26,758 nucleotides of DNA from Clostridiales bacterium (GCA_015056395.1 SVGK01000010.1:1-26758), one strand, 5' to 3'; shown: positions 13,997-26,758, counted from the first letter of the stretch. Numbers and translations: made by a program. The notes: generated by a model from the letters alone, not told the origin.

Positions 13997-14162
13997 CTCC
14001 TCTGCTCCGAATCTATTATATCATGGATACGAACGGCGCGCAAGGTGTTCGCAGCGCGTTGCGTTTCGGTTAATTGCATTCGGATGGTATAGACCCCTTG
14101 AAATCAGCGTCCACATAGATTATACTAATGTAAATAGGTATGCCCTGAAGGAGAGTGAGCCC

Positions 14163-15923
14163 ATGAGCAAGTTCTTTATCGAATGCCCGGCCTGTCACCG
14201 CTACAGCCAGGCCTCCACGTCCCTGTTTGCCAGCCGGCGCATACGCTGCGCCTGCGGCTTCACCATCGACGTCAAGGCGGACCGCATCACCACGCGCGTC
14301 TGTCCGTCCTGCGGCAATTCCATCGCTTTCGACCAGGCGAAGGGCGCGACGGCGAAGTGCCCCATATGCAGGGCGCAGCTGCTCACGCCGGAGAGCATGA
14401 ACAGCCTGGTCACGTTCGCGTGCCGCACCTGCGGCTGCACGCTGCAGGCGAACAAGGGCGCGCAGCAGATCACGTGCCCCCTGTGCGACACGGTCAACGA
14501 CGTGCAGGCCGAGGTCAAGCTCGCGGCGCAGCGCGCGCAAGGCACGCCGCAGGTCATACGCTACGAGGGCGACAACATGACGTTCGTCTGGCGGCACCCC
14601 GCGACGGACTTCGTGATGGGCTCGCAGCTGATCGTGCACGAGAGCCAGGAGGCTCTGTTCTTCCGCAACGGCGAGGCGCTGGATTCGTTCCCAGCGGGAC
14701 GCTACACGCTCGAGACCGCGACGCTGCCGCGCATGAATGGCCTGCTGCCGCTGCCTGTGCAGGGACAGCCCTTCCACGCGGAGGTCTTCTTTGTCAACCT
14801 GACCACGCAGATGGGCATCAAATGGGGCACCAACAGCAAGGTCGGACTGTTCGACCCGGCCAGCGGCCTGCATGTGGAGCTGGGCGCGTCCGGCAGCTTC
14901 AACCTGCGCGTGACGGACCCGCGGCGGCTCGTGATCCGCCTGGTCGGCACCACGGACAGGCTGACGCAGGAGCAGGTGTTCGGGCACGACGGCGGCTACT
15001 TCCGCACGCTGGTCATGACGAAGGTCAAGGCGAACCTCGCGCGCGTGATCAGGGAGAACCGCATATCCGTGCTGGAGCTGGACCAGCACATCGACGTGAT
15101 CGGCGAGGCGCTGCGCACGCAGATCAACGCGGAGTTAGAGGAATACGGCATGACCATGCCTGAGTTCTACGTCGCCAACATACTGACGCCGGACGACGAC
15201 CCGAACTTCAGGCGCATGAAGCAGCAGCACGCGGAGCTCTACCTGCGCACGCGCGAGGAGGAGATCCGTAAGGCCGAGGCGGAGGCGGCGTTCGAGCGCA
15301 AGGCGGTCGAGGCGCAGACGCAGGCGCGCATGAAGGTGATCGGCGCGCAGGGCGAAGCCGACGCCATGCGCATACAGGCGCAGGCCCAGGCGGACGCCTA
15401 CCGCATGCAGGCGGAGGCGGAGGCGCAGGAGATGCGCATGAAGGGCTACACCTACCAGCAGGAGACGACGCGCCAGGTCGCCACGGAGGCGGTCAAAAAC
15501 GGCGGCGCGGGCGGCTTGGCCGGCGACGTGACGGGCGTGCTGGGTGGCGCGATGCAGCTGGGCCTCGGCCTGGGCGCGGCCGGCAGCGTGATCGGCATGA
15601 CGAAGGACGCGCTGGGCGCGATGAACGCGGCCGTGCCGCAGGCGCCCGCCGCGACGGACGACGGCTGGACGTGCGAGGGCTGCGGCTGCACGGGCAACAC
15701 GACGAACTTCTGCCCGAACTGCGGGCGGCGGCGGCCCGAGGCAGGCTGGACGTGCCCGGGCTGCGGGCAGGCGGGCATCACGACGAACTTCTGTCCGAAC
15801 TGCGGGAGGCGACGGCCCGAGGCGGGCTGGACGTGTCCCGGCTGCGGGCTCACGGGCATCACGACGAACTTCTGTCCGAACTGCGGCGCCAAGAAGGGTG
15901 AGAAGGGAGATGTCGAGGGATGA
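14163..15923 (+). CDS. SPFH/Band-7 (YdjI-like, Band_7_1) domain protein fused to multiple zinc ribbons
   Basis: RBS GAAGGAGAG at 14148-14156, then ATG at 14163; the ORF-track start at 13650 is an unsupported extension. The N-terminus has three CxxC...CxxC pairs. The central segment (IRYEGDNMTFVWRHPATDFVMGSQLIVHESQEALFFRNGEALDSFPAGRYTLETATLP...FHAEVFFVNLTTQMGIKWGT) resembles B. subtilis YdjI-type SPFH. An A/E/Q-rich coiled coil, a Gly-rich linker, and three GWTCPGCG..TTNFCPNCG zinc-ribbon repeats follow. Confidence 0.8.
   Translation: MSKFFIECPACHRYSQASTSLFASRRIRCACGFTIDVKADRITTRVCPSCGNSIAFDQAKGATAKCPICRAQLLTPESMNSLVTFACRTCGCTLQANKGAQQITCPLCDTVNDVQAEVKLAAQRAQGTPQVIRYEGDNMTFVWRHPATDFVMGSQLIVHESQEALFFRNGEALDSFPAGRYTLETATLPRMNGLLPLPVQGQPFHAEVFFVNLTTQMGIKWGTNSKVGLFDPASGLHVELGASGSFNLRVTDPRRLVIRLVGTTDRLTQEQVFGHDGGYFRTLVMTKVKANLARVIRENRISVLELDQHIDVIGEALRTQINAELEEYGMTMPEFYVANILTPDDDPNFRRMKQQHAELYLRTREEEIRKAEAEAAFERKAVEAQTQARMKVIGAQGEADAMRIQAQAQADAYRMQAEAEAQEMRMKGYTYQQETTRQVATEAVKNGGAGGLAGDVTGVLGGAMQLGLGLGAAGSVIGMTKDALGAMNAAVPQAPAATDDGWTCEGCGCTGNTTNFCPNCGRRRPEAGWTCPGCGQAGITTNFCPNCGRRRPEAGWTCPGCGLTGITTNFCPNCGAKKGEKGDVEG
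15657..15899 (+). repeat. Three near-perfect 81-bp (27-aa) tandem repeats inside the SPFH gene, each encoding one C4 zinc ribbon
   Basis: GGCTGGACGTG recurs at 15663, 15744 and 15825 with an exact 81-nt period. The encoded units are GWTC[EP]GCGxxGxTTNFCPNCGRRRPEA. Confidence 0.9.
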
Positions 15924-16579
15924 AGAACGGTAAGGGCCATTTCCTTGCGCTTTGGGCCATCGCGCTGGCGCTGTTCGTGGTGCTGGCGCTGGCGATACCT
16001 TTTGCGCGGACGCCGGTGTACTGGATCGGCTTTTGCGCGACGCTTTTGATGTTCGCCGTAGTGACGGCGGCATTCATGCGCGCGTTCAGGGACGGGCGGT
16101 CGCTCGAGAGCGCGCTGCTGGGCTGGCCCATATTCAAGTGCGGCGCACTGGCGCTCGGCGCGCAGCTGATCGCGGGCTTTGCGCTGATGGCGCTGGCGCG
16201 CGCGCTCGGCGTCACCGCGGCTGTGGTGATCGAGATCGTGCTGTTCGGCTGCGCGGCGGCGGTGCTGGTCGCGCGGGACGCGGCGCGCGCCGCTGTCGAG
16301 CAGACGGAGGCGCGCGTGCGGGATGACACCGGCGCGTGGAAGGCACTGCGCGCGCAGGCGAGCGCGTTCGCGGCGGCGGCCGGCAGCGACGCGGCGCGCA
16401 AACTCGCCGACGACATACGCTTTGCGGACCCGAGGCCCACGGACATGGACGGCGATATCGCGCAGGCCGTGGGCGCGCTGGGCGCGGACGCGGCGGACGA
16501 GGATATCGAGCAGGTCAGAAAGATGGTCGGAAGGAGAAACGCGCTGGCGAAGGCGGGGAAGAAGGAAATGCAGAATTGA
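15920..16579 (+). CDS. Small membrane protein (about 4 TM helices, Ala-rich cytoplasmic C-terminus), translationally coupled to the SPFH gene
   Basis: ATGA overlap with the upstream stop (15920-15923). Hydrophobic segments are HFLALWAIALALFVVLALAI, VYWIGFCATLLMFAVVTAAF, GALALGAQLIAGFALMALA and AAVVIEIVLFGCAAAVLV. Confidence 0.75.
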   Translation: MKNGKGHFLALWAIALALFVVLALAIPFARTPVYWIGFCATLLMFAVVTAAFMRAFRDGRSLESALLGWPIFKCGALALGAQLIAGFALMALARALGVTAAVVIEIVLFGCAAAVLVARDAARAAVEQTEARVRDDTGAWKALRAQASAFAAAAGSDAARKLADDIRFADPRPTDMDGDIAQAVGALGADAADEDIEQVRKMVGRRNALAKAGKKEMQN

Positions 16580-16613
16580 TAATTCAGAATTCAGAATTAA
16601 GAATTAAGAATGG
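16580..16613. repeat. AT-rich heptamer microsatellite (AATTCAG x2, AATTAAG x2) directly after the stop codon
   Basis: taATTCAGAATTCAGAATTAAGAATTAAGAATgg contains two EcoRI sites. It is an AT island in an otherwise >65% GC context. Confidence 0.7.
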
Positions 16614-16664
16614 ATAGCCCGGAGACCCGAACGTGCGGGTCCCCCGCAATGCCCCGAACGACCT

Positions 16665-17655
16665 CGTAGCGGTGGCGTCTACGCCGCCATATCCCTCGCC
16701 ATTCCCGCCAGGGAATGCGAAACGACCGAAGGACCTCATCCGGCCCTCACGGGCCACCTTCCCCAAAGGGCAACGCTGTCAACTTTGAACAAGGACATAA
16801 CAAATCATAGATATACGTCGTCCAGCGGGAATGGCGGCTGATAGCCGCCGCTACGGATCACATGATCTGCAAATGTAACCGCATAAACGGCACGGGATCG
16901 TCTTAAGTTGACAGCGTTGCCCCAAAGGGGAAGGCAAGGTCCGCCATTCAATATACGATCCGCCGTCGTACCTCGCCCATCGGTCCCGAGGACGATGATC
17001 AACAGACAAAGAGACGATCGGCCCACGAATGTACCCATATCACAGCTCGGCACGCCCGATCCTCGCCCGGAGCGGCGTCCTGTCGACGCCGTCTCCGCGA
17101 CAAAACCTCGAGCCGTCCGCTCCTATCCGACCTTGATCCCCGAGCTGACGTGGCCCGTTGGACCGCGTACAGCACAGCCACCGCGCCGAAGGCGCGGCGC
17201 GAAGCGTCCTTGAGGGTCCTCATGCTGTCTGCTAAACTGAAGCACACGGCGGCGTGATAAGGTTTCGTTTCCAACCTCTCACCCGTCGCCGTGGCCTCAT
17301 ACAAGCAGACAGCAGGAGGTTCATCAAGGATGGCGGCCGGACGAGGTATCCGTCCCCCCCAACGACCCCGTAGCGGCGGCTATCAGCCGCCACATCCCTC
17401 GCCATTCCCAACAGACAAGCCGAAACGACCGAAGGACCTCATCCGGCCCTCACGGGCCACCTTCCCCAAAGGGCAACGCTGTCAACTTAAGGCGATCCCG
17501 TTTTGGTTGTGCAGCTACATCTGCAGATCGTGTGATCCGTAGCGGCGGCTATCAGCCGCCATTTCCGACGCACAACGTATACCCGTGATTTGTTATGGTC
17601 TTGTTAAAAGTTGACAGCGTTGCCCCAGAGGGGAAGGCAAGGTCCGTCATTTGAA
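16665..17655. mobile_element. Non-coding MITE-like composite repeat: ~115-bp inverted arms (16827-16943 and 17455-17566) around a ~500-bp core, with extra partial copies on both sides
   Basis: The left arm and the reverse complement of the right arm align at ~85% (GGAATGGCGGCTGATAGCCGCCGCTACGGATCACAYGATCTGCA...CTTAAGTTGACAGCGTTGCCC...). Direct repeats 16665-16786 and 17369-17488 share an identical 66-bp block at 16721-16786 and 17424-17488. There is a further fragment at 17609-17652. The only ORFs here are spurious GC-frame ORFs. Confidence 0.6.
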
Positions 17656-17791
17656 TACAAGATCGACCGCACCCCCCAGAATCACGGCCAGCGTTCGATC
17701 TCCGGCCAATAATTCCGAAACACCCGGAGGGTGTCTAGCGAAGCGTCGATTCCGAATTACCCCATCCCCCCACGACCAAAGGAGCAACACC

Positions 17792-20700
17792 ATGATCATC
17801 TTCAAATGCAAATCCTGCGGCGGCGACCTGTCCTTCGAGCCGGGCGCGAGCGTCGCGGAATGCCCCTACTGCGGCGTGAAGCAGACGCTGCCGAAGCTGG
17901 ACGACGACAAGCGCGCGAACCTCTACGACCGCGCCAACCACTTCCGCCGCCAGAACGAGTACGACAAGGCCATGGCGATCTACGAGCAGATACTGTCCGA
18001 GGACCGCACGGACGCCGAGGCGTACTGGTCGCTGGTGCTGTGCCGCTACGGCATAGAGTACGTCGAGGACCCCGTTACGCGCAAGCGCGTGCCCACGGTC
18101 AACCGCGCGCAGTACGCCTCCGTGCTGGCGGACGACGACTACAAGTCGGCGCTTCAATACGCGGACCCTGCGCAGCGCGTGCTCTATGAATCGGAGGCGG
18201 AGGCCATCGCGGAGATACAGCGCGGCATATTGGACATCTCGCGCAAGGAGCAGCCCTTCGACGTGTTCATCTGCTACAAGGAGACGGACGCGAACGGCCG
18301 CCGCACGCCGGACAGCGTGCTGGCGACGGACCTGTACCACCAGCTGACGAAGGAGGGCTTCCGGGTATTCTTCTCGCGCATCACGCTGGAGGACAAGATC
18401 GGCACGGCGTACGAGCCGTACATATTCGCGGCGCTGAACAGCGCGAAGGTGATGGTGGTGCTGGGCACGAAGCCGGAGTACTTCAACGCGGTGTGGGTGA
18501 AGAACGAGTGGAGCCGCTACCTTGCGCTGATACGCGCGGGCGCGGAGAAGGTGCTGGTGCCCGCGTACCGCGACATGGACCCCTATGACCTGCCGGAGGA
18601 GTTCGCGCACCTGCAGGCGCAGGACATGGGCAAGCTGGGCTTCATGCAGGACCTGATACGCGGCATCAAGAAGCTGACCGCGAAGGACGATCCGAAGCCC
18701 GCGCGGCCCGCAGCGCAGACCGTGGTCGCGGGCCCCGGCGCGAACATAGAGAACCTGATGAAGCGCGCGCGGCTCTTCATGGAGGACGGCAACTGGATGA
18801 GCGCCACGGAGTACCTGGACAAGGTGCTGGACGAGAATGCCGAGTACGCGCCCGCCTACGCGGGCAAGGTGCAGGTCTCGCTGCGCATGAAGCGGGAGGC
18901 CGAACTGGCCGGGAGCCTCACGGACTACGAAGGCGACCCCGACTGGCAGAGGGCGCTGCGCTTTGCCGCGCCCGAACAGCGGAAGGTTTACGAGGGGTAC
19001 GCGGCGCAGGCGGCGGAGGCGCGGGAGGAGAAGCGCAAGGAAGACATCTATGCCGGAGCGGCCGCCATGCTCGCAAAGGCCGATACGCCCGCCGCGTGCC
19101 GCGCGGCGAAGGCGGAATTTGCGAAGATCCCGCTGCACAGGGACGCGGGCGCGAAGGTGCGCGAGTGCGAGGAGAAGGCGAGGCGCATCGAATACGACGC
19201 GCTCCTCACCAGATACAAGGACGTGGCCAGGGACTATAACAGCGTCTCAAAGGCCGAGAGGCTTGAGGCGCTTGCGGCGGAGTTCGATGCGTTCAGGGGC
19301 ACCGACATGCCCGGGCGCTGCCGCGCGGAGGCGGAGCAGTGCCGCGCGGCGCTCTATGACGAGGCCGCCGAGGCCATGCGGAAGAGCGCGCAGGCACAGC
19401 AATTCGAAAAGGCGGCGGAGCTGTTCAGACGGCTGGGCGCCTACAGGGACGCGCAGGCGCAGGCGCGAAAGTGCTCGGACAGCGCGGCGGAAGTCAAACG
19501 CGCCGACGAGCTGCGCGCCGCGCGTGAACGCGAGGAGCAGGAGCGCAGGATAGAGAAGGAGCGCGCCAGACAGAAGAGGAACAGGGTGCTCCTGTCGTTG
19601 CTGGTGCTCGTGCTGGCGGCGGGCGCGCTGGCCTATCTGTACGTGCTGAAGCCCATGATGGCCTATGACAAGGCGGTTGGGGCGATGGAGGCGGGAAACT
19701 ACGACGAGGCGACGGCGCTGTTTGAAGAGATGGGAGACTACAGGGACGCCGCTGTACAGGCGCAGGAGAGCCAATACAGGAAGGGTCTGTCGTTGATGAA
19801 CAGCGGAAAATACGATGCGGCTGTAGAGGTGTTCAACAGTATCGGCAGTTACGGCGATAGTTCCGCAAAGGCAAAACAGGCACAGGCAGACAAATTGTTT
19901 GATGCGGGATATTACGCCGAAGCGTATGCGGCATACATCGCATTGGATTCGGAGTATCAAACACATAAAGACGATTACGAGCAGATGTACGTCGATGCAT
20001 CGAGGCTGTTTGCGGATGGTGATTATGATGGCGCCAGCATGGCGTTTAATTCGATCGCGGGATACAAGGATTCAACAACACAGGCAAAGGAGAGCCAATA
20101 CCAGAAGGGCCTGTCGTTGATGAACAGTGGGCAATATGATGCAGCTGTAGAGGTATTCAACAGTATCAGCAGTTACGGCGATAGTTCTACGAGAGCAAAA
20201 CAGGCACAGGCAGATGAATTGTTTGCTGCGGGGAATTACGCCGAAGCATATATGGTTTACGCCGCATTGGATACGGGATATCAAACACACAAAGACGATT
20301 ACGAGCAAATGTACGTCGATGCATCGAAGCAATTTGCGGATGGTGATTATGACGGCGCCAGCAAGGCGTTTAATTCAATTGCAGGATACAAGGATTCAGT
20401 AACACAGGCAAAGGAGAGCCAGTACCAGAAGGGCCTGTCGTTGATGAACAGCGGGCAATATCATGCAGCTGCGGTGGCATTCAAGAGCCTTGGCAGTTAC
20501 AACGACGCCGCGACACAAGCGCAGGAGAGCCAGTACCAGAATGGCCTGTCGTTGATGAAAATTGGGCAATACGATGCGGCTGTGGAGGTATTCAAGAGCC
20601 TTGGCAGTTACAACGACGCTGCGACACAGGCGCAGGAGAGCCAATATCGGAAAGGCATGTCGTTGATGGAGAGCGAGGAGTATGATGCGGCTACGGAGGT

Positions 20701-21484
20701 GTTCGATGGCCTCAGTAATTACAACGACGCCGCGACAAAAGCGCAGGAGAGCCAGTACCTGAAGGCGGCGGCGCTGAACACAGCGGAGAATTACGATGAA
20801 GCTTATCTGGTCTATGCGTCCATAGCCGGCTATAAGGATGTTGACAGCATCGTCAAAAACGACGGTAATATTTCAGCAGCAGCCTGGCGCGCGCAGTTAT
20901 ACGTCGGCAATACGGTGACCTTCGGCGCGTACGACCAGGACGGCGATACCTCAAACGGCGCGGAGGCCATCGAATGGATCGTGCTGGCGAACGACGGCAA
21001 GACGGCGACGCTGATTAGCAGATACGGTCTGGACGCGAAGCCCTACAACACTGAACAAGAATATGTGACCTGGGAGACATGCACGCTGCGGAAATGGCTG
21101 AACGGCGATTTCCTGAACGCGGCCTTTTCGGCGGACGAGAGGGCGAAGCTTGAAACGGTCAAGGTCACGGCGGACAGGAATCCCAAGAATTTTATCGATC
21201 CCGGCAACGACACGCAGGACAAGGTCTTCCTGCTGTCCATAGACGAGGCGAACAAGTATTTCAGCTCTGATTCGGACCGCATGTGCAAGCCCACGAAGAC
21301 GGCAGTCAAGAATGGAGCAAGCACGAACAGCTCGGGTGCGTGCTGGTGGTGGCTGCGGTCGCCCGGCTACTATCCTAGCCTCGTCGCATACGTCCGCGAC
21401 GACGGTTCGGTCTACTACGACGGCTGCGGTGTCTACAACGGCGATCTCGCTGTTCGGCCGGTCGTGGTGCTGCGGCTTTCATAG
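17792..21484 (+). CDS. Large single-pass membrane protein (1230 aa): N-terminal zinc ribbon, TPR-like region, TIR domain, helical repeat region, TM helix, ~12 degenerate 37-38-aa extracytoplasmic repeats, DUF6273-like C-terminal domain
   Basis: RBS AAAGGAG at 17778-17784 and ATG at 17792 (MIIFKCKSCGGDLSFEPGASVAECPYCG); the ORF-track start at 17651 is an unsupported extension. The TIR region at ~18254-18680 reads QPFDVFICYKETD...EGFRVFFS...VMVVLGTKPEYFNAVWVKNEWSRYLAL, with the conserved W-x3-E at 18494-18508. The TM helix RVLLSLLVLVLAAGALAYLYVL lies at ~19585-19650. Repeats fit the pattern G.Y.DA..QA.ESQY.KG. The C-terminus (TVTFGAYDQDGD...IEWIVLANDGKTATLISRYGLD...VTWETCTLRKWLN...KVFLLSIDEA...ACWWWLRSPG...AVRPVVVL) matches my recollection of DUF6273. 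Confidence 0.8.
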   Translation: MIIFKCKSCGGDLSFEPGASVAECPYCGVKQTLPKLDDDKRANLYDRANHFRRQNEYDKAMAIYEQILSEDRTDAEAYWSLVLCRYGIEYVEDPVTRKRVPTVNRAQYASVLADDDYKSALQYADPAQRVLYESEAEAIAEIQRGILDISRKEQPFDVFICYKETDANGRRTPDSVLATDLYHQLTKEGFRVFFSRITLEDKIGTAYEPYIFAALNSAKVMVVLGTKPEYFNAVWVKNEWSRYLALIRAGAEKVLVPAYRDMDPYDLPEEFAHLQAQDMGKLGFMQDLIRGIKKLTAKDDPKPARPAAQTVVAGPGANIENLMKRARLFMEDGNWMSATEYLDKVLDENAEYAPAYAGKVQVSLRMKREAELAGSLTDYEGDPDWQRALRFAAPEQRKVYEGYAAQAAEAREEKRKEDIYAGAAAMLAKADTPAACRAAKAEFAKIPLHRDAGAKVRECEEKARRIEYDALLTRYKDVARDYNSVSKAERLEALAAEFDAFRGTDMPGRCRAEAEQCRAALYDEAAEAMRKSAQAQQFEKAAELFRRLGAYRDAQAQARKCSDSAAEVKRADELRAAREREEQERRIEKERARQKRNRVLLSLLVLVLAAGALAYLYVLKPMMAYDKAVGAMEAGNYDEATALFEEMGDYRDAAVQAQESQYRKGLSLMNSGKYDAAVEVFNSIGSYGDSSAKAKQAQADKLFDAGYYAEAYAAYIALDSEYQTHKDDYEQMYVDASRLFADGDYDGASMAFNSIAGYKDSTTQAKESQYQKGLSLMNSGQYDAAVEVFNSISSYGDSSTRAKQAQADELFAAGNYAEAYMVYAALDTGYQTHKDDYEQMYVDASKQFADGDYDGASKAFNSIAGYKDSVTQAKESQYQKGLSLMNSGQYHAAAVAFKSLGSYNDAATQAQESQYQNGLSLMKIGQYDAAVEVFKSLGSYNDAATQAQESQYRKGMSLMESEEYDAATEVFDGLSNYNDAATKAQESQYLKAAALNTAENYDEAYLVYASIAGYKDVDSIVKNDGNISAAAWRAQLYVGNTVTFGAYDQDGDTSNGAEAIEWIVLANDGKTATLISRYGLDAKPYNTEQEYVTWETCTLRKWLNGDFLNAAFSADERAKLETVKVTADRNPKNFIDPGNDTQDKVFLLSIDEANKYFSSDSDRMCKPTKTAVKNGASTNSSGACWWWLRSPGYYPSLVAYVRDDGSVYYDGCGVYNGDLAVRPVVVLRLS
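19766..20413 (+). repeat. Two tandem 324-bp (108-aa) intragenic direct repeats (~88% identity) within the extracytoplasmic repeat region of the TIR protein gene
   Basis: GAGAGCCAATAC recurs at 19766, 20090 and 20414 with an exact 324-nt spacing. This stretch (~19690-20830) has visibly lower GC (~50%) than the 5' half of the gene (~70%). Confidence 0.85.
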
Positions 21485-21607
21485 TCAAATCGTTAATCTT
21501 TACTCTTCAAATCCTCTGGCGTGCAAGCGCCATGATCCCGGCAGTGCCGCGAACAGACCTTATCCTGCAGGAGCGAGAATCATTGAGTACAAAGAGGTGA
21601 ACAGAAT

Positions 21608-22492
21608 ATGAACGGAAGACCAGGCATCCTCTTTCTCGGCAACGGCATCAACCGACTGTTCAATGACGATCCGTGGGACAAGATGATCCGCGACCAGCTC
21701 GCCCTGTCGGGCCATCGCTACACGTGGGAACAGATCAGGAACATACCGCCCACGATGCAGATCGTACTTGCGACGAACGATCAGGTCGACGCCCGCCTCA
21801 AGCAGATCGCAAAGGAGCTGGAACAACAGCGCATACAGGACGAACGCGCCGCTTTCCTGCGCAGGCTCGCCGGTATGGATGTCGACTGCGTAATGACGGC
21901 GAATTATTCTCTCGAGATCGAAAAGGCATTCGGGCTGAAGGAAAGCTGCGCCTCCTACAGGCGGCGCCTGAACAGGACCATCGAAGCAAACGGCCTGCGC
22001 GACGATTTTCGTCTGTACCAATATTATCCCCTCGAGCGGGCGGACGGAAGGACGATGCCGCTTTGGCACGTGCACGGCGACATCGCGAAGCCTCGCTCCA
22101 TGATCATGGGCCATTACTACTACGCAAGGCATCTGCGCGAGATACAGGACCGCGTCGGCGTTATGATGCGCGTCGTTCGGGGCTGTGAACGGGCCGGCTC
22201 GACGTTCCATCCGCAAAGCTGGGTCGATGCGTTTCTGATAAGCGACGTGTTCATGCTCGGCTTTGGGCTGTATCTGTGTGAGTCCGATTTGTGGTGGCTG
22301 CTCTGCTGCAAGAAGCGCAACTTCCCCGATACGAAGGTGTTCTTCTACGGCGAGGCGACGAATGATGTCCGGCTGCTGCTGGAGGCCTATGGCGGCGAAA
22401 CGCAGGACGAGATCAGCCGGATCGGAGAAGACGGCTATATGCGCTTTTATGAAAGGGCGATCGCGGATATCGAACGAAAGCTGGAACATTAG
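21608..22492 (+). CDS. Stand-alone SIR2-like (SIR2_2 / DSR-ThsA-type sirtuin fold) protein, 294 aa, no additional sensor domain
   Basis: The N-terminal ILFLGNGINRLFNDDPWDKMI fits the SIR2_2 consensus lFlGAGxS...PxW..L. VMTANYSLEIEKA fits TTNYDxLlE (catalytic Asn retained). LWHVHGDIAKPRSMIMGHYYY fits iyKlHGs...lvlt.edY (catalytic His retained). DVFMLGFGLYLCESDLWWLL fits llfiGYSl.D. RBS AAAGAGGTG lies upstream. The gene is 124 bp downstream of, and co-directional with, the TIR gene. Confidence 0.65.
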   Translation: MNGRPGILFLGNGINRLFNDDPWDKMIRDQLALSGHRYTWEQIRNIPPTMQIVLATNDQVDARLKQIAKELEQQRIQDERAAFLRRLAGMDVDCVMTANYSLEIEKAFGLKESCASYRRRLNRTIEANGLRDDFRLYQYYPLERADGRTMPLWHVHGDIAKPRSMIMGHYYYARHLREIQDRVGVMMRVVRGCERAGSTFHPQSWVDAFLISDVFMLGFGLYLCESDLWWLLCCKKRNFPDTKVFFYGEATNDVRLLLEAYGGETQDEISRIGEDGYMRFYERAIADIERKLEH

Positions 22493-22574
22493 TTGGATGT
22501 CCAGAGGGACAAGGACCGCGATCCTGCATGATCGGTGTCATTGATGTATGTCCTGCCCATGCCCTCAATAACGT

Positions 22575-23545
22575 ACCACCGTAGGGACGCCCCATGGGGC
22601 GTCCGCGTGCCCGATCCCGGCACGCACCGCGCAACGTCTTTACGAACCGCATCCCGTAGGGACGCCATTCATGGCGTCCGCCGCGCGTGAGCGCACCGTT
22701 ATCCGTTTCCCCGCAGGGCGCGTTTTCCCCGCGATCCGCCATTGCGGACACACGCAGGGGGAACGTGGCGGCGTAGACGCCGCCGCTACGGATGTTGTTA
22801 TATCACTTGAAGGATGGCGGACAAGGCGCGGCAAGCAACGCTCCTGCGGCGACACATCGCCGCCATTCCGTACACCGACCGTCCTGTCGCCCACGCCGCA
22901 CAGAGCATGACCCTCCGTAGGGACGCCCCATGGGGCGTCCGCGTGCCCGATCCCGGCACGCACTGCGCAACGTCTATACGAACCACATCCCGTAGGGGCG
23001 CCATCCATGGCGCCCGCGCCCTCATCCCGGCATGAACCGCGCAACATCCACACGAAACCGCATCCCGTAGGGACGCCATTCATGGCGTCCGCCTGCGCGT
23101 GAGCGCACCGTTATCCGTTGCCCTACAGGACGCATATCCCCCGCGATCTGCCATCATGAACACGGGGCACGTGGCGGCGCAGACGCCGCCGCTACGGGTG
23201 TTGTTATATATCACCTAACGATGGGGGCGGATGGGGCGCGGCAAGCGACGACCCTGCGGCGACACATCGCCGCCATTCCGTACACCGACCGCCCTGTCGC
23301 CCGCGCCGCACAGAGCATGACCCTCCGTAGGGACGCCCCATGGGGCGTCCGCGTGCCCGATCCCGGCACGCACTGCGCAACGTCTATACGAACCACATCC
23401 CGTAGGGGCGCCATCCATGGCGCCCGCCCGCGCGTAAGCGCACCGTTATCCGTGGCCTCCCAAGGCGCATATCCCCCGCGATCCGTCATCACGAGCGCGG
23501 GGGAACGTGGCGGCGCAGACGCCGCCGCTACGGGTGGTGTTCTTG
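22575..23545. repeat. Three tandem non-coding units (~330, ~420, ~230 bp), each with a perfect 20-bp palindrome GGACGCCCCATGGGGCGTCC, a second palindrome GGRCGCCATYCATGGCGYCC ~75 bp later, and a GTGGCGGCG-yAGA-CGCCGCCGCTACGG hairpin
   Basis: Palindrome A occurs at 22585, 22919 and 23339. Palindrome B or variants occur at 22660, 22995, 23080 and 23413. The CGCCGCCGCTACGG hairpin occurs at 22773-22800, 23171-23198 and 23507-23535. Sequence between the palindromes is itself repeated, so these are not CRISPR spacers. Confidence 0.8.
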
Positions 23546-23603
23546 GACCACCTTTCGCATTTGCGAGCAACGAGTGGTGGATGAGGGCGCAGCATTTTAC
23601 ATG

Positions 23604-23645
23604 AGGGCCTGTTCCCTTCGCGAGAGGGAACGGGCCCTTTTCTTA
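23604..23645 (+). terminator. Stem-loop GGGCCUGUUCCCU-ucgcgag-AGGGAACGGGCCC followed by TTTTCTTAT; terminator-like, first of two near-identical copies
   Basis: 13-bp stem with one G-U pair plus a T-tract on the + strand. It lies immediately 3' of the minus-strand SWIM gene stop (23648), so it is probably bidirectional. The second copy is at 24097-24140. Confidence 0.55.
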
Positions 23646-23647
23646 TG

Positions 23648-23983
23648 TCATTTGCCGAGCACGGTTTCCGCAAACCTGTCGCGGCAGCGCTTTTCAAGCT
23701 CTTTTTCCTGCTGCTTTTTGTAGGCGATGTATTCAAGTACGGCGTTTTTGTCGATGACGCCGCATTCGAGCATGAGGCGGGCGATGTGCTTGCACGGGGC
23801 GTCCTTCTTCTTTCCCCTGATCTGGAAATCGGGGCAGTCGCATTCTTCGAGCGTCGCGTGGTAGATGTCGCCGTTGGAGCCGACGAACACGGCGGAGGGC
23901 ACGCCGGTTTCGATCGACTGCACATTCACGTCCAAGGCGCGAATAGCGGTCTTGTCGTCGAGGTTCCTGTAAGAAATTGCCAT
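23648..23983 (-). CDS. Small SWIM zinc-finger protein (111 aa)
   Basis: CDCPDFQIRGKKKDAPCKHIARL matches the SWIM CxCxnCxH signature. RBS AAAGGAAG lies 6 nt before the ATG at 23983. GC is intermediate. Confidence 0.7.
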   Translation of the reverse strand: MAISYRNLDDKTAIRALDVNVQSIETGVPSAVFVGSNGDIYHATLEECDCPDFQIRGKKKDAPCKHIARLMLECGVIDKNAVLEYIAYKKQQEKELEKRCRDRFAETVLGK

Positions 23984-24096
23984 GGGGATGCACTTCCTTT
24001 CTGGTCGATGCGGTTATGAGGTGCATATCAGCTTTCGAACGGTGATGTATAATAGAAATGCAAATCGGACAAGTGGTGTTGGCTGATTTTGCATGT

Positions 24097-24140
24097 GGGC
24101 CTGTTCCCTTCGCGAGAGGGAACGGGCCTTCTTATTTCTT
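24097..24140 (+). terminator. Second copy of the GGGCCTGTTCCCTTCGCGAGAGGGAACGGGCC stem-loop plus TTCTTATTTCTT, abutting the stop of the minus-strand secreted-protein gene
   Basis: Identical 32-bp hairpin and similar flank (ATTTTRCATGWG upstream) to the copy at 23604. Confidence 0.5.
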
Positions 24141-24689
24141 GGTCGGGGCAACAACAAGCAAATAACTTTCGATGTATTCGGGGTTCCAGATGTAATAGGT
24201 GGCATAGCGGCCAATGTGATAGGGGATACGCGCGCCGGGCGTCAAGATGGATCCTGCATTTCTGAAAACATTCATAGTCTTCTCATAGAACCCTTTTGAA
24301 TCGGACATTATGGACAAAACCTGATCATGCGATATATTCGGGAAACTTGTGTACTCAAGCGCAGAATACAGGGCCATGAGCTTGAAGGCGTCTTCAACAG
24401 ACAAGTCGTCAGTGGATATGTTGACGTTCAACGGAAAATCTACAGACAATGTAGCGAAAGATGAAGCATCGTACTGAATCGTAATCATGTCATAGCCCAT
24501 CGCGGAAGTGGCATCGTTCACATCGGCAAAAACTGGGTCAGCTTTGAACGGATAGCCATACAGCGAACACCATCCAGCATATGTGGCTGCAATCCTTGAA
24601 GGCGTATCAAAGCCGGACGAAGCATCTGCGAGAGCGAAACCGGACAATATGAGTGCGAGCAAGAGCAGTATAACAACAAGTCTTTTCAT
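24132..24689 (-). CDS. Secreted hypothetical protein with N-terminal signal peptide (185 aa), lower-GC gene
   Basis: ATG at 24689 preceded by GGAGGTG with a 7-nt spacer. MKRLVVILLLLALILSGFALADAS is a signal peptide. The ORF-track start at 24734 lacks an RBS. GC is ~45-50% versus >65% for flanking DNA. Confidence 0.7.
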   Translation of the reverse strand: MKRLVVILLLLALILSGFALADASSGFDTPSRIAATYAGWCSLYGYPFKADPVFADVNDATSAMGYDMITIQYDASSFATLSVDFPLNVNISTDDLSVEDAFKLMALYSALEYTSFPNISHDQVLSIMSDSKGFYEKTMNVFRNAGSILTPGARIPYHIGRYATYYIWNPEYIESYLLVVAPTKK

Positions 24690-24747
24690 GTGAAACACCT
24701 CCATTAGGTCCATATTCCGTGACGGCACGTTCATGGATTCAGGATAA

Positions 24748-25131
24748 CTATGCCGTTATGGACGCGCCATCTTCCTTTTGCATGTCCGGGTTGCCTGCGA
24801 AGGCGCGGGCTGTGTTCAGGAGGGTGGTTTGGGCGTCGTGGTTCAGGGAACGGAACAGGGAAAGAAGCTCAGATTCCTGTTCTGTAAGCGGAACGGATAA
24901 TTCATATTTTGGGGGTTCAGAGTAGAATTCAGCGATGCTGTTGATTCCATAGATCTCACACAGGCGAAAGAGCATATCAGCGTCCGGCTGGCCCCGGCCA
25001 TGCTCCCAGCCCGATACGGTCTTATCGCTTTTACCGATCATTTCGCCAACTTCTCTTGCTGTCAAGCCTGCCATTATTCGGAAATCATGCAGCTTGGCGG
25101 CGAGGGCTTTTCTGATTTCTTGTTCTTTCAC
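24748..25131 (-). CDS. XRE-family (Cro/CI-type) helix-turn-helix transcriptional regulator, 127 aa
   Basis: GTG start at 25131 preceded by GAGGTGA. The HTH reads LTAREVGEMIGKSDKTVSGWEHGRGQPDADMLFRLCEIY, and there is a C-terminal extension. Confidence 0.85.
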   Translation of the reverse strand: MKEQEIRKALAAKLHDFRIMAGLTAREVGEMIGKSDKTVSGWEHGRGQPDADMLFRLCEIYGINSIAEFYSEPPKYELSVPLTEQESELLSLFRSLNHDAQTTLLNTARAFAGNPDMQKEDGASITA

Positions 25132-25150
25132 GGAATCTCACCTCAAAAGA

Positions 25151-25179
25151 AGTATACAACCATTTTAGCTATATTGCAA
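25151..25179 (-). promoter_or_regulatory. Sigma-70-type promoter for the minus-strand XRE regulator (-35 TTGCAA, 17-nt spacer, -10 TATACT)
   Basis: Reverse complement of 25151-25179 reads TTGCAAtatagctaaaatggttgTATACT. Located ~20 nt upstream of the RBS. Confidence 0.55.
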
Positions 25180-25219
25180 GACAAATCCTTAAATAATGAG
25201 AATTAATTGATAAAATGGC

Positions 25220-25248
25220 TTGACAGTCTATGATTTTAAGAGTATTAT
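25220..25248 (+). promoter_or_regulatory. Divergent sigma-70 promoter (-35 TTGACA 25220-25225, 17-nt spacer, -10 TATTAT 25243-25248) flanked by three TTAAGAG/CTCTTAA operator-like repeats
   Basis: Consensus -35 with near-consensus -10. TTAAGAG recurs at 25236-25242 and 25271-25277, and an inverted CTCTTAA at 25262-25268 brackets the -10. Confidence 0.65.
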
Positions 25249-25291
25249 ATATCCACGCTCTTAAAATTTAAGAGATTGAGAGGTGGTTAAT

Positions 25292-25507
25292 GTGTATCAC
25301 ATCAAAGATGTCGCTACTGTAGTTGAGGAAAGACGCAGTGAATTTGGTATGACGGTTCGCGCATTGTCTCAAAAGAGCGGCGTCAGCGAAGGCGCTTTGT
25401 ATAGGATCCTTGGCGGCCATTGAAAGATGACCGCATCGGAACTGCTGTCGCTCTCGGAGGTATTGCATTTGACGTTCGATGACTATCGATCTGAAGAGGC
25501 GGTGTGA
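25292..25507 (+). pseudogene. Small XRE-family HTH gene interrupted by an in-frame TGA (25421-25423); Cro-like partner of the divergent regulator
   Basis: GTG at 25292 after RBS AGAGGTGG. Translation is MYHIKDVATVVEERRSEFGMTVRALSQKSGVSEGALYRILGGH-*-KMTASELLSLSEVLHLTFDDYRSEEAV*. Both halves together make one canonical HTH_XRE domain in a single frame. Confidence 0.55.
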
Positions 25508-25509
25508 AT

Positions 25510-25761
25510 ATGGCGCGGATGAGCGTTGAGGAGCTGGCGGCGCTTCCGGGCGTCGCGGTCGGAACGAAAGAAGCCGCGGCGGTGCTGGGGTGCGACAGGT
25601 ATTCGCTGACCATCGCCGCGAAGTGCGGGATGCTGGGGCTGCCGCACTTCTTCTCCGGGAACAGGCTCAAGATCAGCAAGGCGGCGCTGCTTGAATTCTG
25701 CGGCGCGCACGGCGCGACGGGTGAAGTGCCCATCGTGCCGGGAAAGGGCGTGAAGGCGTGA
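25510..25761 (+). CDS. Excisionase/MerR-like helix-turn-helix (HTH_17, Xis-type) DNA-binding protein, 83 aa
   Basis: MARMSVEELAALPGVAVGTKEAAAVLGCDRYSLTIAAKCGMLGLPHFFSGNRLKISKAALLEF. The ATG at 25510 immediately follows the upstream stop. Confidence 0.65.
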   Translation: MARMSVEELAALPGVAVGTKEAAAVLGCDRYSLTIAAKCGMLGLPHFFSGNRLKISKAALLEFCGAHGATGEVPIVPGKGVKA

Positions 25762-25997
25762 AGATCATCGCGGTGGACTTTGACGGGACGCTGTGCGAGA
25801 GCGCTTGGCCGGACATCGGCAAGGCGCACTGGGGCGTGATCAACCAGCTCGTGAAGCGGCAGGCCGAGGGCGACAAGATCATACTTTGGACGTGCCGGAC
25901 GGGAAAGCAGCTGGAGGAGGCCGTCAAGTGGTGCACAAACCACGGGATACGGTTCAAAGCCGTGAAGCGACGCCCCTACGGCGACGCATCATCGTGA
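25758..25997 (+). CDS. Small HAD-motif protein (DxDGT motif I; phage-associated type), 79 aa
   Basis: The GTG start overlaps the upstream stop. VKIIAVDFDGTLCESAWPDIG... is HAD motif I, followed by ILWTCRTG (motif II-like Thr). Confidence 0.55.
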   Translation: MKIIAVDFDGTLCESAWPDIGKAHWGVINQLVKRQAEGDKIILWTCRTGKQLEEAVKWCTNHGIRFKAVKRRPYGDASS

Positions 25998-26039
25998 TCG
26001 CGCTAAACCGATCCGATGTATACGCACATATGATTTTGC

Positions 26040-26165
26040 GCACGACATAGGCCGTTCCCGCAGGGGCACCATCCATGGCGCCCGCCACACGTGAGCGCAT
26101 GTTACCCATCTTCCCGTAGGGACGCCCCATGGGCGCCCGCGTTCCCCATGCCCGACACACCGAAA
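26040..26165. repeat. Partial, degenerate copy of the palindromic repeat family seen at 22575-23545
   Basis: GGGCACCATCCATGGCGCCC (near-palindrome) ... CACGTGAGCGCA ... CCCGTAGGGACGCCCCATGGGCGCCCGCG match the palindrome B and A types of the downstream array. Confidence 0.6.
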
Positions 26166-26222
26166 CAGAGCCGCCGCGCGCCATCTGCGCACGGCGGCTC
26201 CGCCTGTCATCTCAACGCTCTT

Positions 26223-26758
26223 TTACTTGAGCAGCTCGTTGAACTCGTCCTGCATGGCCTGGAGGTTCGCGTCCACCTCGCCGGTGGAGAGCATCTCGGT
26301 CATGTAGTCGTCAAAGCGGGTGAAGATCTCCTGCGTGTTCTTGTCGGCGGCGGGCAGCGGCACGCCCCAGCCGTCCTTGGACGCGCCTAGGAAGGCCTCG
26401 GTGTTGAAGTCCGCATAGGCCTCGGCCCACATGTCGTCGCAGCCCTCGTAGGCGGGGATGACGACCTGGGCGGTCATGGCCTGCGCCTCGGCGGTGCCCA
26501 TCCACTCAAGGAAGGTCTTGACCTCTTCGGGATGCTCGGTGGTGGCGGCGCCGACCCAGCTCAGCGAGTGGGACACGGTCTTGCGCTCGGCCATGGTCGG
26601 CAGCGGGGCCACGCCCAGCCTGTCGCCGAACACGCCCACATAGGTGCCCATGTTCCAGGAGCCATTGAAGGTCATGGCGATCATGCCGGACTGGAAGCGG
26701 GTGTCGGCGTCCAGCTCGACCTGGTCTTCGACGGTGGGAGATACGCCTTCCACGAGTA
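26223..26758 (-). CDS. ABC transporter extracellular solute-binding protein, C-terminal part (N-terminus beyond window end)
   Basis: The frame is open to the window edge. The C-terminal sequence ...GVAPLPTMAERKTVSHSLSWVGAATTEHPEEVKTFLEWMGTAEAQ...DEFNELLK is typical of family-1 sugar SBPs. Stop at 26223-26225. Confidence 0.75.
   Translation of the reverse strand, partial: LVEGVSPTVEDQVELDADTRFQSGMIAMTFNGSWNMGTYVGVFGDRLGVAPLPTMAERKTVSHSLSWVGAATTEHPEEVKTFLEWMGTAEAQAMTAQVVIPAYEGCDDMWAEAYADFNTEAFLGASKDGWGVPLPAADKNTQEIFTRFDDYMTEMLSTGEVDANLQAMQDEFNELLK

What the first reader, a model, noticed from the sequence alone, without database searches (positions are those of the whole stretch)
22560..23560. 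Tandem array of ~330-420-bp non-coding units made of nested perfect palindromes, directly downstream of the SIR2 gene
Three units each carry two perfect or near-perfect palindromes: a 20-bp GGACGCCCCATGGGGCGTCC and GGRCGCCATYCATGGCGYCC. Each also carries a GTGGCGGCG-n4-CGCCGCCGCTACGG hairpin and a conserved ~90-bp block (GGCGCGGCAAGCRACG..CCTGCGGCGACACATCGCCGCCATTCCGTACACCGACCG...). All three stem types begin or end with the CGTAGGG / CCCTACGG 'clamp'. It superficially resembles a CRISPR array, but the inter-palindrome sequences are themselves repeated and the spacing is irregular (76/258/76/88/256/74 bp). It is more likely a REP/BIME-like or satellite element. Its position makes it a candidate recombination hot spot or boundary for the TIR-SIR2 cassette.
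Basis: seen in the sequence. Interest (0 to 1): 0.6.

Follow-up and report, generated by a model that had tools for sequence, protein, structure and literature searches.

The report
Tandem cluster of GTAG-tagged REP hairpins
The repeat array after the SIR2-like gene is a non-coding cluster of REP elements (small GTAG-tagged DNA hairpins, a known kind of bacterial genomic repeat) that has been amplified in tandem and differs in unit number between strains; it is not a CRISPR array or a gene, and it is mostly ordinary.

Summary
Window 22579-23545 holds seven direct-oriented hairpins of the form CCGTAG + 9-bp stem (GGRCGCC..GGCGYCC) and three inverted hairpins of a second class (CCGTAGCGGCGGCG..CGCCGCCAC). 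They are arranged as three composite units: [A B C][X A B' B C][X A B'/B C].

It is not CRISPR, because the 44-nt inter-palindrome pieces are 75-100% identical to one another. It is not coding, because its longest ORF has no homologue among 5.8 billion proteins.

The hairpins meet the published structural definition of REP elements: GTAG 0-2 nt 5' of a 7-20-bp stem with a short loop. The same family occurs in:
- two further intergenic clusters in the window (16650-17560 and 25960-26140);
- a neighbouring contig and a related prophage contig;
- many contigs of other rumen Clostridiales MAGs.

In other phyla the same core flanks RAYT (Y1 transposase) genes. Strain contigs from different metagenomes carry 2, 3 or 4 units, so the array expands and contracts.

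The best reading is a REP cluster of a GTAG family not described for Clostridia in the papers I read, that is, a new member of a known kind. No RAYT gene could be tied to the source genome. The proposed role as boundary of the TIR-SIR2 cassette remains untested.

The parts
22579..23545 (+). Whole REP cluster. It has three composite units: unit 1 at 22579-22815 [A B C], unit 2 at 22816-23225 [X A B' B C], and unit 3 at 23226-~23561 [X A B'/B-hybrid C].
22579..22604 (+). REP-A1: CCGTAG + GGACGCCCC-AT-GGGGCGTCC (perfect 20-nt palindrome)
   Evidence: ssDNA fold of 22575-22650, which also holds the accessory hairpin: -22 kcal/mol, z -2.8
22654..22679 (+). REP-B1: CCGTAG + GGACGCCAT-TC-ATGGCGTCC
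22915..22940 (+). REP-A2
22990..23015 (+). REP-B'2: CCGTAG + GGGCGCCAT-CC-ATGGCGCCC. The stem change A>G is compensated by T>C on the other arm.
23065..23090 (+). REP-B2
23325..23350 (+). REP-A3
23400..23425 (+). REP-B'3: B' stem joined to the B-type 3' tail. This is the pattern expected from a 75-nt deletion by recombination between B' and B.
22765..22791 (-). Class-2 REP (C1), read on the minus strand: CCGTAGCGGCGGCG-TCTA-CGCCGCCAC
23171..23197 (-). Class-2 REP (C2)
23507..23533 (-). Class-2 REP (C3)
22605..22625 (.). Accessory hairpin GCGTGCC-n7-GGCACGC directly after REP-A. It is repeated at 22941-22961 and 23351-23371.
22816..22914 (+). Block X, copy 1 (99 nt). It contains the hairpin GCGGCGA-CACA-TCGCCGC at 22846-22863. 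Copy 2 lies at 23226-23324 (92% identical).
23603..23639 (+). Strong terminator-like hairpin (16 pairs followed by TTTTCTT). It closes the SIR2-array interval and sits next to the 3' end of the convergent SWIM gene (23648-23983, minus strand).
25961..26141 (+). Second, decayed cluster of the same family. It has an X-like piece with CCCTACGG (25965-25990), a B'-like REP with one stem mismatch (26058-26083) and an A-like REP with a 1-nt deletion (26114-26140).
16652..17651 (.). Third cluster, upstream of the TIR-TPR gene. Class-2 REPs lie at 16666(+), 16854(-), 17370(+) and 17539(+), inside two ~300-nt direct copies of a composite element.

Best explanation
The region is a cluster of repetitive extragenic palindromes (REPs) of the GTAG-tagged super-family. 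It lies in the 1.1-kb non-coding interval between the convergent SIR2-like and SWIM genes of a rumen-type Clostridiales MAG.

Two REP classes are present:
- Class 1 is GTAG|GGRCGCC..GGCGYCC, with seven copies, all with GTAG 5' on the + strand.
- Class 2 is GTAGC|GGCGGCG..CGCCGCC, with three copies, inverted.

Together with stretches of flanking DNA they form a composite unit of 336-410 nt that has been reiterated in tandem.

Shown here:
- The hairpin anatomy.
- The presence of the same family at other intergenic sites of this lineage and on many contigs of related genomes.
- Compensatory stem changes.
- The non-coding, non-CRISPR nature of the array.
- Unit-number polymorphism (2, 3 or 4 units) between strains.
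- The same REP core flanking RAYT genes in other phyla.

Inferred from what is established for REPs and RAYTs:
- The hairpins form on single-stranded DNA. The + strand is probably the lagging-strand template here, because the ribosomal-protein operon is on the + strand and GC skew is positive across the variable region.
- They are recognised through the GTAG guide plus the stem by a RAYT/TnpA-REP Y1 enzyme encoded elsewhere in the genome, which seeds copies.
- The local array then grows and shrinks by unequal recombination or replication slippage between REP copies. The 75-nt B' sub-unit gain, and its apparent loss in unit 3, are examples.
- The interval has no convincing terminator before 23603 (only the weaker, terminator-like C hairpins at 22764 and 23170). 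The array is therefore probably transcribed as the 3' UTR of the TIR-SIR2 operon, where GC-rich hairpins could act as 3' exonuclease barriers, as E. coli REPs do. This last step is speculative.
For: - Anatomy: all 15 GTAG-tagged hairpins in the 26.7-kb window fall in three intergenic clusters. All have GTAG 0-1 nt from a 7-10-bp stem with a 2-4-nt loop.
- Folding: the hairpin-containing segments fold as ssDNA with z-scores of -2.4 to -3.3 against shuffles.
- Family membership beyond this locus: a class-2 singleton lies between the MatE and NUDIX genes on the neighbouring contig (L127:2638). Exact REP-A/REP-B pairs lie at two intergenic sites of a related prophage contig (L125 = L145).
- Wider distribution: a capped scan of species-representative genomes gave more than 113 stretches. 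These include 10 separate 8-kb chunks of rumen MAG RUG11088, 6 of RUG103 and 4 of RUG13574.
- Stem covariation: of 127 matches, 121 have complementary R/Y (84 A-T, 37 G-C), against about 72 expected if the two positions were independent.
- Related Clostridiales show the same habits: head-to-tail tandem arrays of 36- and 44-nt period, and head-to-head dimers of two different stems.
- RAYT link: Y1_Tnp / 'REP element-mobilizing transposase RayT' genes sit next to, or are flanked by, the same GTAGGGACG.. core in L037, L039, L012 and L048. GTAG hairpins also flank RAYT relatives in L150, L151 and L152.
- Dynamics: architectures are [ABC][XABC] in L114, L116 and L119; three units in the window; four units in L117; and at least three in L115 and L120. 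Flanks are otherwise identical.
- Non-coding: no Pfam hit. The 147-aa ORF has one hit in 5.8e9 proteins, a spurious call on the same array. Gene callers call nothing in some strains and different frames or strands in others.
Against: - No RAYT gene was found in the window, in its ~6-kb extension, or in 34 Bacillota loci (about 239 kb) carrying the REP. The transposase step is therefore unproven for this lineage.
- The genome-wide copy number in the source MAG is unknown, because the window is the whole contig.
- A crude ORF-mask test showed only modest extragenic enrichment in other genomes: 66% of REPs lie inside a >=150-aa six-frame ORF against a 92% background.
- Head-to-tail (direct) arrangement is reported as rare for GTAG REPs.
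- The 2- and 4-unit variants come from short-read metagenome assemblies, which can collapse or mis-join tandem repeats. Many contigs break inside the array.
- No expression data exist for the 3' UTR idea.
Confidence: 0.8

Rival explanations
1. The 336-410-nt units are copies of a non-autonomous transposable element (MITE/PATE-like, or a REPIN-like doublet bounded by the B(+) and C(-) hairpins with GTAG ends outwards). It inserted repeatedly or duplicated, and moves as a unit rather than as single REPs.
For: - B(+) and C(-) form a head-to-head pair with GTAG termini outside.
- Tight head-to-head pairs of two different stems are the common form in related MAGs (L043, L018, L097).
- The upstream region holds two ~300-nt copies of another composite REP-containing element with 18-nt perfect inverted repeats.
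Against: - Outside the ~30-nt REP cores, the unit sequence (X block and tails) matches nothing in 142 fetched loci, nor in the protein-level search.
- The two hairpins are ~80 nt apart and are not complementary to each other, so no REPIN-type long hairpin forms.
- The units are strictly head-to-tail with no target duplications. This fits local amplification better than repeated insertion.
Confidence: 0.1
2. The array is primarily a functional RNA feature: a long structured 3' UTR, terminator/attenuator or sRNA array controlling the TIR-SIR2 operon or the convergent SWIM gene. Its REP resemblance would be incidental to that role.
For: - It lies between the SIR2-like stop (22492) and the only strong terminator (23603-23639).
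- The C hairpins are followed by GTTGTTAT tails and are flagged as weak terminator-like sites.
- All class-1 hairpins are in the sense orientation for the upstream operon.
- In L034 a head-to-tail REP array sits between a stop codon and the next gene's ribosome-binding site.
Against: - No Rfam family matches at the gathering threshold, and the only two matches at E<=1 (E 0.31 and 0.57) score far below their families' gathering scores.
- Unit number varies between strains, which argues against a precise RNA architecture.
- The same hairpins occur in unrelated contexts and phyla and next to RAYT genes.
- There are no expression data.
- This reading is compatible with the REP explanation rather than opposed to it.
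Confidence: 0.15
3. It is a degenerate or orphan CRISPR array.
For: Palindromic ~26-31-nt cores recur at 75-nt spacing. At most three occur in a row (22915, 22990, 23065).
Against: - The 44-nt 'spacers' are 75-100% identical to each other (shuffled mean 55%, maximum 70%).
- The two long inter-palindrome pieces are 87% identical to each other.
- Spacing alternates between 75 and 260 nt.
- No Cas model hit in the ten neighbouring proteins scanned.
- The repeat core is shared across phyla as singletons and dimers.
Confidence: 0.01
4. The units are part of a repetitive protein-coding gene.
For: - ORFs of 67-147 aa exist on both strands.
- The 75-nt sub-unit is a multiple of three.
- Gene callers produced a 174-aa and a 204-aa 'gene' in two strain contigs.
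Against: - No ORF spans more than about one unit, and the 410-nt unit is not a multiple of three.
- The called ORFs are on different strands in different strains, and none is called in others.
- There is no Pfam hit.
- The only homologue in 5.8e9 proteins is the spurious call on the same array.
- Translations are Arg/Ala/Gly/Pro/Cys-rich, as expected from GC-rich non-coding DNA.
Confidence: 0.01

Closest known systems
GTAG-tagged REP families and their clusters (Di Nocera et al. 2013, PMC3733652; definition used by Quentin et al. 2018, PMC6006769)
   Same: - GTAG tetranucleotide directly 5' of a 6-13-bp GC-rich stem with a 2-4-nt loop.
- Sub-families differ by compensatory stem changes.
- Several families coexist in one genome.
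- Location is intergenic.
- Clusters are made of dimers reiterated in tandem together with flanking DNA.
- RAYT genes are flanked by the same hairpins (shown here for other phyla).
   Different: - The host is a Clostridiales (Bacillota) MAG. The 2013 survey lists Proteobacteria, Cyanobacteria, Chloroflexi and the PVC group, and does not mention Firmicutes.
[quoted passage not shown]
- The reiterated unit is unusually long (336-410 nt).
E. coli BIMEs (bacterial interspersed mosaic elements)
   Same: - Composite intergenic mosaics of REPs plus conserved linker motifs.
- Often found between convergent genes or within operons.
- Variable in copy number between strains.
   Different: - BIMEs are defined by regularly spaced REPs in alternating orientation (Nunvar et al. 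2010 abstract). Here seven REPs are direct, and only the class-2 hairpin is inverted.
- The linkers are not related to BIME linker motifs.
- Binding of IHF, gyrase or Pol I was not tested.
REPINs (REP doublets forming hairpins; Bertels and Rainey) with Group 2/3 RAYTs
   Same: REP-derived repeats thought to be mobilised by a single-copy domesticated Y1 transposase. Head-to-head doublets exist in related rumen MAGs.
   Different: No pair of mutually complementary inverted REPs forming a long hairpin occurs in this array. The RAYTs found next to this REP core are a different, widely distributed COG1943 family from Chloroflexota, Cyanobacteria and Bacteroidota.
Thermomicrobium roseum GTAG-23 blocks
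   Same: [quoted passage not shown]
   Different: The stem sequence and phylum differ. Whether the source genome also has dispersed singletons is only partly known; one was seen at L127:2638.
CRISPR arrays
   Same: Short palindromic repeats recur at a fixed 75-nt pitch over short runs.
   Different: The spacers are themselves repeats, the spacing is irregular overall, no cas genes are present, and the repeat is dispersed as singletons elsewhere.

Membership tests
REP (GTAG super-family) | GTAG (or GTGG) tetranucleotide 0-2 nt 5' of the hairpin | tested here: met
   All 10 hairpins of the array and all 15 in the window carry C/T-CGTAG. It lies 0 nt (class 1) or 1 nt (class 2) from the stem.
REP (GTAG super-family) | Fully paired basal stem of 7-20 nt with a loop of 2-5 nt | tested here: met
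   Class 1 has 9-bp stems with 2-nt loops. Class 2 has 7-10-bp stems with 2-4-nt loops.
REP (GTAG super-family) | Many copies dispersed through the genome, mostly extragenic | tested here: inconclusive
   Four separate intergenic regions were found in the ~32 kb available for this lineage (window plus L127), plus a related prophage contig. Related rumen MAGs have hits on up to 10 separate 8-kb chunks. The crude ORF-mask enrichment was weak.
REP (GTAG super-family) | Stem maintained by compensatory changes among copies | tested here: met
   GGACGCC/GGCGTCC against GGGCGCC/GGCGCCC within the array. 121 of 127 matches across genomes have complementary R/Y.
REP (GTAG super-family) | A cognate RAYT/TnpA-REP gene in the same genome, typically flanked by the REPs | not testable with these tools
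   No RAYT was found in the window, in L127, or in 34 Bacillota loci. The same core flanks RAYT genes in L037, L039, L012 and L048, and GTAG hairpins flank relatives in L150-L152. Bertels et al. 2017 report Group 1 RAYTs in Clostridia.
BIME | Regularly spaced REPs in alternating orientation | tested here: not met
   The seven class-1 REPs are all on the + strand. Spacing is 75/261/75/75/260/75, and only the class-2 hairpin is inverted.
REPIN | Two inverted, mutually complementary REPs forming one long hairpin | tested here: not met
   The B(+) and C(-) stems differ and lie ~80 nt apart. No inverted repeat joining them was found.
CRISPR array | Unique spacers of uniform length between identical repeats | tested here: not met
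   The 44-nt spacers are 75-100% identical to each other, and the 229-230-nt pieces are 87% identical. TRF reports 80% matches over the whole 75-nt period.
CRISPR array | Associated cas genes or a leader | tested here: not met
   No Cas family appears among the Pfam or PADLOC results for the neighbouring proteins. This covers only the 26.7-kb contig.

The most novel reading that the evidence does not exclude
REP clusters in this lineage may be more than passive repeats. They could be the recombination joints of a variable island.

Three clusters (16650-17560, 22580-23530, 25960-26140) punctuate three apparently acquired modules:
- the TIR-TPR/SIR2-like pair;
- a low-GC SWIM/HTH block;
- a truncated phage-like HTH/HAD block.

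One strain contig (L139) switches to unrelated DNA exactly at the end of the upstream REP-containing element. If REP/RAYT chemistry, or REP-REP recombination, swaps cassettes at these joints, this would be a REP-mediated cassette-exchange system for defence-like genes in Clostridia.
Probability: 0.1. Interest if true: 0.6.

Novelty: new member of a known kind. Interest (0 to 1): 0.3.

Why it matters
REPs and their RAYT transposases have been studied almost only in Proteobacteria. This locus shows a canonical GTAG-tagged REP family in rumen Clostridiales. Its core (GTAGGGRCGCC..) is nearly identical to cores that flank RAYT genes in Chloroflexota, Cyanobacteria and Bacteroidota.

The practical value is modest:
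- Such arrays mimic CRISPR, break short-read assemblies (many contigs end inside this one) and generate spurious gene calls.
- The strain-variable unit number could serve as a typing marker.
- The family could be used to look for a Clostridial RAYT.

Nothing here overturns current understanding.

Tried and rejected
- Rfam: no family at gathering thresholds for the whole window. Only two chance-level hits at E<=1 for 16500-26300.
- blastn of the array against 50,697 phage records: no match.
- Metagenome scan with the exact 29-nt REP-A: only one contig, so it gave no census of the source genome.
- Search for a RAYT in all fetched loci, by tblastn with E. coli RayT and four new RAYTs and by an HMM built from 120 homologues. 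Only the four non-Bacillota genes were found.
- RAYT-profile scan of IMG/VR: three further RAYTs, none demonstrably Clostridial.
- Look-ups by the SIR2-like, SWIM and 219-aa proteins, to find strains lacking the cassette or the array. All contigs that reach the array have the same order.
- Test for flipped orientation of the upstream 119-nt inverted-repeat-bounded segment among strain contigs: none flipped.
- Literal search of the REP core in the paper library: only unrelated primer hits.
- Integron attC sites were considered and set aside by inspection only. No R''/R' GTTRRRY-type cores were seen, the hairpins are short and perfect rather than 60-140-nt imperfect, and no integrase is present. 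No formal attC model was run.
- The ORF-mask test of extragenic location was too crude in ~60% GC DNA to be informative.

Full report
**What is there**

The sequence between the stop of the SIR2-like gene (22492) and the convergent SWIM gene (23648-23983, minus strand) is 1.1 kb of 65-68% GC DNA. It contains seven hairpins of the form CCGTAG + 9-bp stem + 2-nt loop:
- GGACGCCCC-AT-GGGGCGTCC at 22585, 22921 and 23331;
- GGACGCCAT-TC-ATGGCGTCC at 22660 and 23071;
- GGGCGCCAT-CC-ATGGCGCCC at 22996 and 23406.

All seven have the GTAG head on the + strand. Three hairpins of a second type, GTGGCGGCG-n4-CGCCGCCGCTACGG, lie at 22765, 23171 and 23507. Read on the minus strand these are CCGTAGC + GGCGGCG stem.

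The pattern is far beyond chance: 8 matches against 0.01 expected. Tandem Repeats Finder gives a 410-nt period and a 75-nt sub-period.

I split the array into sub-elements:
- A is REP-A plus an accessory hairpin plus a tail (75 nt).
- B' and B are the other two class-1 sub-units.
- C is the inverted class-2 hairpin.
- X is a 99-nt block.

With these, the architecture is [A B C][X A B' B C][X A B'/B C].

**Not coding, not CRISPR, not a known RNA**
- ORFs in the array are 67-147 aa on both strands, and none spans much more than a unit.
- They have no Pfam hit.
- The 147-aa ORF finds a single 'homologue' among 5.8 billion proteins. That hit is a spurious gene call on the same array in another metagenome.
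- Gene callers called nothing in the array in some strain contigs, and called different strands in others.
- The 44-nt pieces between palindromes are 75-100% identical to each other (shuffled mean 55%). The two long pieces are 87% identical. There are therefore no unique spacers.
- No Cas or other defence model matched the neighbouring proteins, beyond HTH and SWIM domain hits.
- Rfam gave nothing.

**It is a member of a dispersed hairpin family**

The same CCGTAG-tagged hairpins occur outside the reported coordinates.
- A decayed cluster lies at 25961-26141.
- Four class-2 copies lie in the 1.1-kb intergenic region upstream of the TIR-TPR gene, at 16666, 16854, 17370 and 17539.
- All 15 GTAG-tagged hairpins of the window lie in these three intergenic regions. 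None lies in the ribosomal-protein/SecY part.
- A neighbouring contig of the same lineage has a class-2 singleton between two genes (L127:2638).
- A prophage tail-module contig from another metagenome carries exact REP-A/REP-B pairs at two intergenic sites (L125 = L145).

A capped scan of one genome per species with CGTAGGGRCGCC-N6-GGCGYCC returned more than 113 stretches.
- About a third are from rumen or gut Clostridiales and other Bacillota MAGs. Up to 10 separate 8-kb chunks come from one MAG.
- The rest are mostly from Anaerolineae and other Chloroflexota. Others come from Omnitrophota, Planctomycetota, Myxococcota and further phyla.
- The loops are non-random (ATTCAT, ATTTAT, ATGCAT and similar, which extend the stem).
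- The two degenerate stem positions are complementary in 121 of 127 matches. This is direct evidence that the hairpin, not the sequence alone, is maintained.
- Only the ~30-nt core is shared with other genomes. The X block and the tails are private to this locus.

**Comparison with known REPs**

The hairpins satisfy the operational definition of canonical REPs: GTAG or GTGG 0-2 nt 5' of a fully paired 7-20-nt stem with a 2-5-nt loop (Quentin et al. 2018).

They also fit the description of GTAG families by Di Nocera et al. [quoted passage not shown]

That survey lists Proteobacteria, Cyanobacteria, Chloroflexi and the PVC group, and does not mention Firmicutes. It also states that head-to-tail dimers are rare. 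Here the class-1 copies are all head-to-tail. Related rumen MAGs have head-to-tail arrays of 36- and 44-nt period as well as head-to-head dimers of two different stems. Strict BIME (alternating orientation) and REPIN (complementary doublet) architectures are not met.

**Link to RAYT transposases**

Among the 113 loci, four carry a Y1-transposase gene next to the matched hairpin.
- These are L037 and L039 (Anaerolineae), L012 (labelled Pleurocapsa) and L048 (Pollutibacter).
- In L039 the gene is flanked by two inverted GTAG-GGACG hairpins, which is the classical RAYT arrangement.
- The four proteins hit Pfam Y1_Tnp weakly, and only one exceeds the curated cut-off.
- They have more than 2,200 relatives. 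JGI names many of these 'REP element-mobilizing transposase RayT'.
- Three further relatives from IMG/VR are also flanked by GTAG hairpins with lineage-specific stems.

No such gene was found in the window, its extension or the 34 Bacillota loci. For the source genome the enzyme is therefore inferred, not shown. Bertels et al. 2017 report Group 1 RAYTs in Clostridia.

**Dynamics**

The window is a whole contig of a 'Clostridiales bacterium' MAG. Contigs from at least ten other metagenome assemblies encode the identical SIR2-like protein. Where the interval is complete, the unit number differs:
- two units in L114, L116 and L119;
- three units in the window;
- four units in L117;
- at least three units in L115 and L120, where the contigs end inside the array.

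Unit 3 of the window looks like unit 2 after recombination between B' and B. Many contigs stop exactly at a REP-A. Short-read assemblies can collapse tandem repeats, so the alleles need long-read confirmation. Even so, the coexistence of distinct, internally consistent architectures argues for real expansion and contraction.

**Mechanism proposed**
- Established for REPs elsewhere and inferred here: the GTAG plus stem is recognised on single-stranded DNA by a RAYT, which seeds copies.
- Local arrays then change by unequal recombination or slippage between copies.
- The + strand is probably the lagging-strand template. The ribosomal operon is on the + strand, and cumulative GC skew rises over the variable region. 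This is the strand on which Y1 enzymes act.
- The first strong terminator after the SIR2-like gene is at 23603-23639. The only earlier candidates are the weaker, terminator-like C hairpins at 22764 and 23170. The array is therefore probably a 3' UTR in which the hairpins may slow 3' exonucleases. This is speculative.

**Boundary idea**

REP clusters sit on both sides of the TIR-TPR/SIR2-like pair, and on both sides of a low-GC SWIM/HTH/phage-remnant block. One contig (L139) diverges into unrelated DNA exactly at the end of the upstream REP-containing element. No strain lacking the array or the cassette on the SIR2 side was recovered. The boundary role therefore stays an untested possibility.

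**Verdict**

This is a real, non-coding, strain-variable cluster of GTAG-tagged REPs. It is a new lineage and an unusual (head-to-tail, long-unit) arrangement of a well-known kind of element. Interest is modest.

Noticed in passing
window 16652-17651: Two direct ~300-nt copies (93-95% identical, 703 nt apart) of a composite element lie upstream of the TIR-TPR gene. Each starts with a class-2 GTAG hairpin. Each contains a 119-nt segment bounded by perfect 18-nt inverted repeats, GGGCAACGCTGTCAACTT/AAGTTGACAGCGTTGCCC. The inner segment is in opposite orientation in the two copies while the flanks are direct, so it looks like an inverton or a MITE. No flipped variant was seen in nine strain contigs, and the inverted-repeat motif was not found in IMG/VR.
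   Followed up: partly
L139 3688-3993 (corresponds to the window just after 16949): In one metagenome contig the 219-aa gene and a single copy of the upstream element are followed by unrelated DNA: a terminator-like hairpin and a minus-strand ORF. The second copy and the TIR gene are not there. The switch is exactly at ...GGTCCGTCATT|. The same sample also has a TIR-SIR2 contig (L122). This hints at a variable junction.
   Followed up: partly
window 25961-26141 and 25758-25997: The decayed REP cluster begins exactly where a phage-like HAD/PNKP-type phosphatase ORF is cut short. The ORF is 79 aa and covers only profile positions 2-91 of 143. The ORF tail (KRRPYGDASS) is read from REP-like sequence.
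   Followed up: partly
window 23640-25960: A low-GC block (43-52% against ~60%) looks like a mobile-element remnant lying between two REP clusters. It contains a SWIM protein, a 200-aa protein of unknown function, an XRE-type HTH repressor, a divergent HTH gene interrupted by an in-frame TGA (25292-25510), an HTH_17 (excisionase-like) ORF and the truncated HAD gene.
   Followed up: partly
window 23594-23644 and 24086-24136: Two 51-nt direct repeats (90% identical) flank the SWIM gene. Each contains a strong + strand terminator-like hairpin, GGGCCTGTTCCCTTCGCGAGAGGGAACGGGCC. The neighbouring gene is 200 aa in some strains and 185 aa in others.
   Followed up: no
L037 ~4690, L012 ~1125, L048 812-839: In three RAYT genes of other phyla a GTAG-REP hairpin lies inside the RAYT reading frame. 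It sits in a variable loop between the HUH motif and the catalytic C-terminal part, for example ...RRDAMHGVPT... in L048. The frame is kept open.
   Followed up: no
L125 (= L145) 880-1240 and 8010-8105: A contig that IMG/VR classes as viral, with a tape-measure (PhageMin_Tail) gene, carries exact REP-A/REP-B pairs in two intergenic gaps of the tail module. These REPs therefore also populate (pro)phage DNA.
   Followed up: partly
L034 6996-7134; L109 5148-5308: Rumen MAG RUG11088 has mini-arrays of four head-to-tail copies of the same REP at 36-nt and 44-nt pitch. Their 'spacers' are near-identical. One array lies between a stop codon and the next gene's ribosome-binding site. These are CRISPR look-alikes that could confuse array finders.
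   Followed up: partly
window 17651-22492: The 'TIR-SIR2 cassette' is weakly supported as a defence system. The large protein has TIR_2, many TPRs and a C-terminal DUF6273. The SIR2_2 hit of the 294-aa protein is below Pfam's cut-off. Neither protein matches any PADLOC model. The TPR region holds 324-nt and 111-nt tandem repeats at 19756-20763.
   Followed up: partly
window 15663-15886: An 81-nt in-frame tandem repeat (2.8 copies, 88% matches) lies in the C-terminal double-zinc-ribbon part of the SPFH/Band-7 protein (13650-15923). Strain contigs call this gene at 586 aa rather than 757 aa.
   Followed up: no
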